Positions 5,039 through 6,576 of a DNA stretch of 28,099 nucleotides are shown one piece after another. Location of the stretch: NCBI RefSeq assembly GCF_003334815.1, contig NZ_QOWO01000046.1, one strand, 5' to 3'. Source of the stretch: Escherichia coli (lineage in GTDB: Bacteria > Pseudomonadota > Gammaproteobacteria > Enterobacterales > Enterobacteriaceae). The stretch's first letter is position 1, and every line of letters begins with the position of its first letter. Both the position numbers and the translations under genes were made by a program. The notes below the pieces were generated by a model that saw only the letters and a program-made list of their open reading frames with translations, had not been told where the DNA came from and ran no database searches.

Positions 5039-5246
5039 GTCAAACCCCTTTAAATATTTATGATATTAAATATAACAACGTCTGGATAACGACCCGGCCT
5101 GACTGAATATCTCACGTTTTCCTGCTTAACATTCATGTTATGATGCTCTTGAAACTAATAATACGTATGGAATTGTCACTATTTATCTGCTAATGAATTC
5201 AAACAATGTCATTCGTTTGATGAATATATTATTTCAGGGAATAATT

Positions 5247-5669
5247 ATGACACCTTTAGAACGCATTACCCAACTTGTTAATATCAATGGTGATGTTAAT
5301 AATCCTGATACTCCTCGTCCATTGTTATCTCTTGAGGATTTTTTTATTGACAATAATATCCATGGTTCAATATGTTGCAATGTGATTCCAGAACAATCTC
5401 CGCAAGCTATCTATCACCATTTTCTGAAAATACGTGAGCGTAACAATGTTAGTGATGTTTTGGTAGAAATTACGATGTTCGATGACCCAGACTGGCCCTT
5501 TAGTGAAAGTATTTTAGTTATCACCACTGCTTCACCAGAAGAAGTTCAGAGCTGGTTTGTAGAAGAAATTGCCCCTGATGAGTGCTGGGAAGGATGGTCA
5601 GAAGATACGGAGCATGGATGGGTTGAAGTCCCTGTGGGTATGCATCCGGTTACTTGTTGGTGGGATTAA
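5247..5669 (+). CDS. yfbO: Uncharacterised small acidic, Trp-rich protein, 140 aa from the ATG at 5247 (158 aa if the in-frame upstream ATG at 5193 is used)
   Basis: ORF with AGGGA Shine-Dalgarno at 5235-5239 ahead of the ATG at 5247. C-terminus ECWEGWSEDTEHGWVEVPVGMHPVTCWWD. No catalytic motifs. Confidence 0.7.
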   Translation: MTPLERITQLVNINGDVNNPDTPRPLLSLEDFFIDNNIHGSICCNVIPEQSPQAIYHHFLKIRERNNVSDVLVEITMFDDPDWPFSESILVITTASPEEVQSWFVEEIAPDECWEGWSEDTEHGWVEVPVGMHPVTCWWD

Positions 5670-5727
5670 AACATTTATATAAACAGATAAGCGGATGTTT
5701 ACATAAATTTTTATGTGAAGGAACATG

Positions 5728-6576
5728 ATGAAACTTATTCCTCGCAGTAGTGATATTTCACCTGGCATTGATGGAATTTGCCCGGGGCCTTTTCCTCCGA
5801 ACGGATTTACCGTACTTACAGATGCAGCATATGGTAACGGAGACTGTTTCGGTTTGTACTGGCCTATTGGTCAGGAGCATAAACTACCTATAGTGTGCGA
5901 AACGTACCATGACGAATGGCGAATCGTACCTGCCTTTTCCAGCATTAAGAAGTTCGAAGAATGGCTGGAAGTGAATGATGATGATCCCCATGAAAATGGC
6001 ATCAGCATCGAAGATCAAGACTTTGCAGCAAATCTCTTCCGTGTTGCTCGGAAATGTCTTTCAACGGGAAGGCTTGATGACGCACTGCCACTGTTACAGC
6101 GAGCAACAGAACAATTGCCTGAAGTCAGCGAATATTGGTTAGCACTGGCAATCCAGTATCGCCGATGTAAAAAAACAGAAGCTGCAGCACAGGCTGCGCT
6201 TAATGCTTATCTTGGCAATTGGGCATTTGGTGTTCCTGACAATAAAGTCATTCATTTGCTGTCACAGGCCGCAGATGTCCCGAATTTCCAGGATGATCCT
6301 GTGATTCAGTGCATTAAAGAACAAGGATTAGATCTTAGCTTTGGAGGAACAAAGGAAAATAATAATTACCCCTTGATGCAGATGTGTGTTGATACTTATT
6401 TTGCGCAGAGAAAACCGCTTCAGGCATTAACCCTGTTACATAATTATGCCTGGATAATGTCCAGTGAAACGACTGCATTTCAGGAACGCTATGATTTTAA
6501 TATCGATGAATGGCGGGCAAAATTCAGGCAGTTATGTTTAGAGTATTTTGGCGATAGTCGTACACAGTTCACTTAA
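5728..6576 (+). CDS. yfbP: Uncharacterised protein, 282 aa (283 if the adjacent ATG at 5725 is used)
   Basis: ORF beginning with a tandem ATG-ATG preceded by GAAGGA; ends 36 bp before the shared terminator hairpin. No signal peptide or catalytic motif recognised. Confidence 0.75.
   Translation: MKLIPRSSDISPGIDGICPGPFPPNGFTVLTDAAYGNGDCFGLYWPIGQEHKLPIVCETYHDEWRIVPAFSSIKKFEEWLEVNDDDPHENGISIEDQDFAANLFRVARKCLSTGRLDDALPLLQRATEQLPEVSEYWLALAIQYRRCKKTEAAAQAALNAYLGNWAFGVPDNKVIHLLSQAADVPNFQDDPVIQCIKEQGLDLSFGGTKENNNYPLMQMCVDTYFAQRKPLQALTLLHNYAWIMSSETTAFQERYDFNIDEWRAKFRQLCLEYFGDSRTQFT

What the first reader, a model, noticed from the sequence alone, without database searches (positions are those of the whole stretch)
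5193..6576. Tandem small cytoplasmic proteins YfbO and YfbP with no catalytic motifs: candidate orphan immunity-like or adaptor genes
Two co-oriented genes encode soluble proteins without signal peptides or enzyme signatures. YfbO is acidic with a Trp-rich C-terminus. Parts of YfbP (..FGLYWPIGQEHKLPIVCETYHDEWRIVPAFSSIKKFEEWLE..) give an impression of immunity-protein-like families of the SUKH/SMI1-KNR4 type. This is my unverified impression, not a search result. Such pairs in AT-rich islands are often orphan immunity genes left behind by toxin loss.
Basis: inference. Interest (0 to 1): 0.35.

Follow-up and report, generated by a model that had tools for sequence, protein, structure and literature searches.

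The report
Strain-variable SUKH-type immunity-like gene islet

The parts
4051..6611 (.). Low-GC accessory islet (SUKH-gene remnant, yfbN, yfbO, yfbP) inserted between the yfbM stop codon and the nuoN terminator hairpin. In genomes without it, about 17-19 bp of unrelated sequence occupies the site.
   Evidence: Junctions were read directly from the K-12 window and an empty-site strain. The islet is present at >=80% coverage in 946 of 5,426 complete E. coli genomes. yfbM abuts nuoN in the others. GC is 39.7%.
4051..4321 (+). Decayed 3' remnant of a SMI1/KNR4 (SUKH) gene. It is non-coding in K-12.
   Evidence: It aligns with the 3' half of the SMI1/KNR4 gene region of strain PapRG-06-5. The intact 190-aa gene is present in strain ETEC6335 and about 11 other genomes. 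That gene gives a weak Pfam SMI1_KNR4/SUKH_5 match and is named SMI1/KNR4 by NCBI.
4322..5038 (-). yfbN, 238 aa, cytoplasmic and acidic, with a weak UBA-like N-terminus. It is part of the islet and is transcribed divergently from yfbO.
   Evidence: ORF and annotation. Pfam UBA_4 E=0.003. Weak match to the TNK1 UBA domain. dN/dS is 0.24 against the variant allele.
It is the founding member of Pfam PF27222, a compact acidic alpha/beta protein ending in an invariant CWWD.
5728..6006 (+). yfbP residues 1-93: divergent, N-terminally shortened SUKH (SMI1/KNR4-like) domain with four strands and one helix.
6007..6231 (+). yfbP residues 94-168: two tetratricopeptide repeats.
   Evidence: Pfam TPR_16 E=2.7e-5 and TPR_14 E=2.4e-4. 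The family profile matches consensus TPR proteins in the PDB.
6232..6576 (+). yfbP residues 169-282: strongly conserved C-terminal module of unknown function (FGGTKxNxNY ... SETTAFQERYGF).
   Evidence: Invariant columns in the family alignment. No Pfam or PDB sequence match covers it. It occurs without the SUKH part on Providencia/Proteus conjugative plasmids.
6617..6635 (.). 7-bp GC-rich hairpin (CCGCCGA-GCATG-TCGGCGG) flanked by an A-run and T-rich sequence. It is probably the terminator of nuoN and lies just outside the islet's right junction.
   Evidence: Read directly from the sequence, and conserved in both filled and empty sites. The terminator function is inferred; the scan tool did not call it.

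Best explanation
yfbO and yfbP are two evolutionarily independent, cytoplasmic, non-enzymatic accessory genes. Together with yfbN and a decayed SMI1/KNR4 gene they fill a horizontally acquired, strain-variable slot between yfbM and the nuo operon. YfbP is a three-part protein: a divergent SUKH domain, two TPRs, and a conserved C-terminal module. YfbO is a very acidic, Trp-rich compact alpha/beta protein (PF27222). The best-supported reading is that the slot is a small, heterogeneous, partly decayed polyimmunity-type locus. On this reading its products are stand-alone toxin-binding (immunity-like) or adaptor proteins that neutralise protein toxins delivered by competitors (CDI, Rhs or T6SS nucleases and similar) by stoichiometric binding, with no cognate toxin encoded in cis. 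What is shown: the gene structures, the islet boundaries and polymorphism, the SUKH-type fold of YfbP's N-terminal domain, purifying selection on yfbO and yfbN, and one YfbO homologue inside a toxin-immunity array. What is inferred: that any of these proteins binds a toxin, that YfbO's conserved negative charge serves to block a nucleic-acid-binding toxin, and that a toxin was once linked to the islet.
Confidence: 0.4

Rival explanations
1. These are accessory cellular adaptor proteins with a physiological role in the host (for example envelope or exopolysaccharide regulation that affects the phage N4 receptor pathway), not immunity proteins. YfbP would use its SUKH and TPR parts as general protein-protein interaction modules, as Syd and Smi1/Knr4 do. 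YfbO would have its own conserved partner.
For: The yfbO and yfbL Keio mutants are specifically resistant to phage N4, and sensitivity is restored by ASKA plasmids (bioRxiv 10.1101/2025.09.29.679331). YfbO is strongly conserved with a fixed length and is usually solitary among ordinary genes. Both genes show purifying selection. Non-immunity SUKH proteins are among the structural hits. YfbP's C-terminal module is highly conserved.
Against: About 81% of E. coli genomes have no trace of the islet (1,013 of 5,426 have any match), and the family is very rare across species, with 8 loci found in about 100,000 species genomes using one search pattern. That argues against a core role. No conserved gene partner was found. 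The N4 result comes from a single preprint using Keio strains, with no mechanism proposed.
Confidence: 0.3
2. These are components or modulators of phage defence or counter-defence, for example inhibitors of abortive-infection toxins, acquired on a mobile islet.
For: yfbN was a 'blocker' of the retron-Sen2 toxin RcaT in an overexpression screen, and yfbO was chosen alongside it only because of genetic linkage (bioRxiv 10.1101/2020.06.22.160242). There is an N4-specific phenotype. Some YfbO neighbours are AbiGi, AAA_21, RadC or ParE/antitoxin genes. YfbO's conserved strong negative charge resembles that of DNA-mimic inhibitors, although this comparison rests on my own knowledge.
Against: There are no PADLOC matches for any of the four proteins. 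There are no PHROG matches and no homologues in 50,697 phage records. yfbO did not pass the screen's own significance cut-off. Loss of yfbO gives resistance to phage rather than sensitivity, which is the opposite of what a defence gene would do.
Confidence: 0.15
3. These are functionless remnants: decaying horizontally transferred DNA whose ORFs persist by chance.
For: A neighbouring gene in the islet is already a pseudogene remnant. IS elements interrupt or delete the islet in some strains. Truncated yfbP and SMI1/KNR4 forms are common in databases. YfbP homologues are split by frameshifts in Shewanella algae and in a Planctomycetota genome.
Against: dN/dS is 0.32 for yfbO and 0.24 for yfbN, with no internal stops in the divergent alleles. 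Both families are conserved across phyla, with invariant motifs and confident predicted folds. Knockout and overexpression phenotypes have been reported.
Confidence: 0.1

Closest known systems
SUKH superfamily immunity proteins (SMI1/KNR4, SUKH-1 to -6; e.g. B. subtilis YobK, RhsPI, Tdi1/DUF1851)
   Different: YfbP itself has no significant Pfam hit. The domain is about 90 aa rather than about 130-150 aa and lacks the N-terminal helical half. It is fused to TPRs and a conserved C-terminal module. No adjacent toxin was found in any locus examined.
Polyimmunity loci and polyimmunity proteins (Zhang et al. 2012, Biol Direct 7:18, PMC3482391)
   Same: The locus is a toxin-less cluster of small genes that includes SUKH-type genes. 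Its content differs between strains of one species. SUKH/TPR fusion architectures occur.
   Different: It holds only 2-4 genes, fewer than the four or more immunity genes of an 'extended' locus. yfbN is on the opposite strand. YfbO, YfbN and YfbM are not recognised immunity families. There is no adjacent recombinase in E. coli.
Pfam PF27222 (YfbO family)
   Same: K-12 YfbO is the name-giving member, and all 84 significant homologues carry the tag.
   Different: The family has no assigned function, so membership says nothing about mechanism.
Orphan immunity genes of CDI/Rhs loci (cdiI or rhsI 'orphan' modules)
   Same: These are small cytoplasmic proteins retained without a full-length toxin. 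They sit in variable regions and decay by IS insertion and frameshifts.
   Different: Orphan cdiA-CT/cdiI or rhs-CT/rhsI modules normally keep a toxin-CT fragment next to the immunity gene. No such fragment is detectable anywhere in the islet (ORFs; family scans).

Membership tests
SUKH superfamily (for YfbP residues 1-93) | Significant sequence match to a SUKH-clan profile (SMI1_KNR4, SUKH_5, SUKH_6 and related) | tested here: inconclusive
   YfbP itself gives no hit even at E<=10. Among 102 family members, 1 hits SMI1_KNR4 at E<=1e-3 and 9 at E<=0.1, and 1 and 8 hit SUKH_6 at the same thresholds. Only one stray hit goes to any other family. hhalign against a 3-sequence SUKH_5 profile and against the E. 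coli SMI1/KNR4 protein was not significant.
SUKH superfamily (for YfbP residues 1-93) | SUKH alpha+beta fold | tested here: met
SUKH superfamily (for YfbP residues 1-93) | Gene adjacent to a polymorphic toxin gene in at least some genomes | tested here: not met
   No recognisable toxin lies next to YfbP homologues in Leminorella, Providencia/Proteus plasmids, Shewanella, Tenacibaculum or Planctomycetota. The 897-aa upstream protein in Tenacibaculum has no detectable domain. The sample is small, at about 6 independent contexts.
SUKH superfamily (for YfbP residues 1-93) | Binds and neutralises a cognate toxin | not testable with these tools
   This needs binding or protection assays.
SUKH superfamily (for YfbO) | SUKH fold or sequence match | tested here: not met
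Polyimmunity locus (Zhang et al. 2012) | Tandem, co-directional array of several immunity genes without a toxin | tested here: inconclusive
   yfbO and yfbP are co-oriented and 58 bp apart, but yfbN is on the opposite strand. Only one product (YfbP) and one remnant have an immunity-type fold.
Polyimmunity locus (Zhang et al. 2012) | [quoted passage not shown] | tested here: met
   At least four states exist: K-12 type (946 genomes), SMI1/KNR4-yfbN'-yfbO' (about 12), SMI1/KNR4-like-yfbN'' (2), and empty (about 4,400). IS-mediated deletions also occur.
Pfam PF27222 (YfbO) | Match to the family model | tested here: met
   The precomputed PF27222 tag is on K-12 YfbO and on all but one of the 85 hits listed, the exception being a 100-aa fragment. 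The tool's own Pfam copy predates the family.
Tetratricopeptide repeat proteins (YfbP residues 94-168) | Match to TPR profiles | tested here: met
   TPR_16 E=2.7e-5 and TPR_14 E=2.4e-4. The family profile matches consensus TPR structures.
Known anti-phage defence systems (PADLOC) | Match to any defence-system protein model | tested here: not met
   There were no matches for YfbM, YfbN, YfbO or YfbP at E<=1.

The most novel reading that the evidence does not exclude
YfbO (PF27222, together with its roughly 76 AFDB structural relatives) is the core of a previously unrecognised, widespread family of highly acidic inhibitor or immunity domains, possibly nucleic-acid mimics that block nuclease-type toxins. 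It would occur either solo or fused to SUKH or TPR modules. The yfbM|nuoN slot would then be a conserved hotspot in Escherichia where such immunity-type cassettes are swapped. The phage N4 dependence on yfbO would reflect this inhibitor acting on a host or phage nucleic-acid enzyme.
Probability: 0.15. Interest if true: 0.55.

Novelty: new member of a known kind. Interest (0 to 1): 0.3.

Why it matters
yfbO and yfbP are among the remaining uncharacterised 'y-genes' of the most-studied bacterium. YfbP is currently annotated only as a 'tetratricopeptide repeat protein'. Showing that it carries a divergent SUKH domain gives a concrete, testable hypothesis: it binds a protein toxin or another partner protein. 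It also helps to know that the islet is a mosaic slot which holds an SMI1/KNR4 gene in some strains. The work separates the two genes, since they are not a functional pair. It also flags YfbO as a confidently folded, conserved, very acidic protein with no known structural relative and a reported phage N4 phenotype, which makes it a reasonable target for follow-up. None of this overturns existing ideas; it is an annotation gain of moderate interest.

Tried and rejected
(1) A direct Pfam, NCBIfam, PADLOC and PHROG scan of YfbO and YfbP found only TPR in YfbP and nothing for YfbO.

(2) Sequence-profile searches of the PDB with the YfbO family, the YfbP-N family and YfbN found nothing significant.

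(3) hhalign of the YfbP-N profile against three SUKH_5 proteins from L003 and against the E. coli SMI1/KNR4 protein was not significant, although the aligned segments were the equivalent ones.

(4) I first took the 'standalone' YfbP-N proteins in Shewanella and Planctomycetota as evidence for an independent domain. I rejected this because tblastn shows the C-terminal half follows in another frame, so these are split or frameshifted full-length genes.

(5) P0256 and P0270, with 9-10 matches each to the YfbP-N profile, looked like tandem-SUKH polyimmunity proteins. I rejected this because each individual match has E of about 0.3-4 and falls on a 48-residue beta-repeat of a secreted, T9SS-tailed protein.

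(6) The 897-aa protein directly upstream of the Tenacibaculum homologue was tested as a candidate toxin. It has no Pfam, NCBIfam or PDB match.

(7) A Pfam census of 60 neighbour ORFs at 7 further YfbO loci found no toxin or immunity families and no recurrent partner.

(8) The promoter and terminator scan gave counts no higher than in shuffled sequence, so it is uninformative.

(9) Literature searches for DUF1877, DUF4253, DUF4304 and pRiA4b as immunity families found nothing useful.

Full report
**What is there.** The window is the E. coli K-12 region elaD'–yfbK–yfbL–yfbM–yfbN–yfbO–yfbP–nuoN…, matching K-12-type genomes at 100% identity. The two ORFs of the finding are real. RefSeq starts YfbO at 5247 (140 aa) rather than 5193. 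This agrees with 59 homologues that all begin MTPLERIT and have a median length of 140 aa. YfbP is annotated from 5728 (282 aa). YfbO has pI 4.1 and its seven Trp residues all fall in the last 58 residues. Neither protein has a hydrophobic segment. The quoted peptide is YfbP residues 42–82.

**The genes sit in a strain-variable islet.** Comparison with E. coli genomes that lack the genes gives exact junctions. The islet spans 4051–6611 (2.56 kb, 39.7% GC against 55.9% for nuo) and replaces about 17–19 bp between the yfbM stop codon and the nuoN terminator hairpin. No target-site duplication is visible. It is present at ≥80% coverage in 946 of 5,426 complete genomes, and 985 copies are ≥99% identical. 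In most other genomes yfbM abuts nuoN.

The slot is a mosaic. About 12 genomes carry an intact 190-aa SMI1/KNR4 gene followed by yfbN′ and yfbO′, with no yfbP. Two genomes carry a SMI1/KNR4-like gene and yfbN″ only. Some genomes have IS-mediated deletions. The K-12 spacer at 4051–4321 aligns with the 3′ part of that SMI1/KNR4 gene and is a decayed remnant of it. Relatives of the islet genes also occur in E. fergusonii and E. albertii, and truncated SMI1/KNR4 forms are common. Between the two main alleles, dN/dS is 0.32 for yfbO and 0.24 for yfbN, compared with 0.04 for yfbM. The genes are therefore functional but under relaxed constraint. dS also differs sharply between yfbN (0.72) and yfbO (0.155), which points to a recombinant history.

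**YfbP.** Pfam finds only TPRs at residues about 100–168, and the PDB profile search confirms them. The N-terminal ~90 residues define a family of at least 150 clusters at 50% identity, most with the same 270–360 aa architecture.
- I scanned 102 diverse members one at a time against Pfam. Nine hit SMI1_KNR4 and eight hit SUKH_6 at E≤0.1 (best 6e-5 and 9e-5), with only one stray hit to any other family.

YfbP is a divergent, shortened SUKH domain fused to two TPRs and to a strongly conserved C-terminal module (FGGTKxNxNY…SETTAFQERYGF) of unknown function.

- One YfbO homologue sits in a textbook cassette of LHH toxin, SUKH_5, SUKH_5, YfbO and a 103-aa ORF, beside a Tox-REase-5/Imm52/SUKH cluster.
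- A Priestia plasmid copy lies in a run of small co-oriented genes with paralogous DUFs next to a recombinase.
- In the remaining roughly 13 contexts, YfbO is a solitary gene among unrelated neighbours. A Pfam census of 60 neighbour ORFs found no toxin or immunity family and no recurrent partner.
- For YfbP homologues, no recognisable toxin was adjacent. The Shewanella copy lies in a small-gene array containing a Tdi1-type immunity gene but is itself frameshifted. The large upstream ORF in Tenacibaculum has no detectable domain.
- YfbO and YfbP co-occur only in Escherichia, so they are not a conserved pair.
- Neither family occurs in phage records, and none of the islet proteins matches PADLOC.

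**Literature.** No paper links these genes to SUKH or to immunity. A preprint reports that yfbO and yfbL knockouts are specifically resistant to phage N4 and can be complemented. In a retron-Sen2 screen, yfbN was picked as an overexpression 'blocker' of the RcaT toxin, and yfbO was included only because of linkage. Zhang et al. 2012 describe polyimmunity loci as toxin-less, variable between strains and dominated by SUKH. They also describe polyimmunity proteins in which SUKH or Imm domains are fused to one another and to TPRs.

**Interpretation.** The islet best fits a small, heterogeneous, partly decayed polyimmunity-type slot whose products are toxin-binding or adaptor proteins without a cis toxin. 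I put confidence at about 0.4 for the functional claim and about 0.8 for the SUKH-fold assignment of YfbP-N. A cellular adaptor role (0.3), a phage-related role (0.15) and functionless decay (0.1) remain as rivals. In terms of novelty this is a new, divergent member of a known superfamily plus an uncharacterised family. It is a useful annotation of two K-12 y-genes and not a surprise to specialists.

Noticed in passing
window 4051-4321: The 'intergenic' spacer between yfbM and yfbN is the decayed 3' remnant of a SMI1/KNR4 (SUKH) gene. The gene is intact (190 aa) in about 12 E. coli genomes, is frameshifted at a poly-C run in strain PapRG-06-5, and also occurs in E. fergusonii and E. albertii.
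   Followed up: yes
All homologues and RefSeq start at the ATG at 5247, which is preceded by an AGGGA Shine-Dalgarno-like sequence.
   Followed up: yes
window 4322-5038 (yfbN) against L035 and L036: yfbN alleles of the different islet types are far more diverged (dS about 0.72-0.75, 70-71% aa identity) than the adjacent yfbO alleles (dS 0.155, 90% aa identity). The islet is therefore a recombinant mosaic. YfbN has weak UBA-like N-terminal repeats and was reported as a blocker of the retron toxin RcaT.
   Followed up: partly
L015-L017 8001-8869; L019 703-1528: The YfbP homologue of Shewanella algae is split into two overlapping ORFs by the same frameshift in three independent assemblies. A Planctomycetota homologue is split in a similar way. 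Whether these are pseudogenes, a real two-part gene or recoding was not determined.
   Followed up: partly
L001 8428-9044; L035 916-1886; L002 1-1110; L034: Neighbouring genes of the interval also decay in various strains. yfbL is frameshifted in 99-3311 and ETEC6335, yfbK is absent in 99-3311, elaD is frameshifted or truncated in others, and IS1 copies replace yfbL through yfbP in S1-INA-02-A. The whole elaD-nuoN interval is prone to decay.
   Followed up: no
plasmid record CP137936.1 (hits H54, H69): A 365-kb E. coli record classed as a plasmid carries yfbO and yfbP at 100% identity. It may be an F-prime-like element or a chromosomal fragment that was misassigned.
   Followed up: no
L010 and L011: In an unidentified enterobacterial relative (YfbK, YfbL and YfbO all about 68-70% identical to K-12), yfbO follows yfbL directly with no yfbM between them. 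The contig ends just after yfbO. This suggests yfbO has long been associated with this chromosomal neighbourhood.
   Followed up: no
window 23501-24000 and 1-500: There are further GC dips in the window (0.364 at 23501-24000 and 0.336 at 1-500), outside the finding. They were not examined.
   Followed up: no
L018 3635-6328: In a Tenacibaculum genome, an 897-aa protein with no detectable domain (only marginal MORN_2 hits) ends 10 bp before the YfbP-N homologue and is followed by several unannotated small ORFs. It could be an unrecognised toxin or effector.
   Followed up: partly
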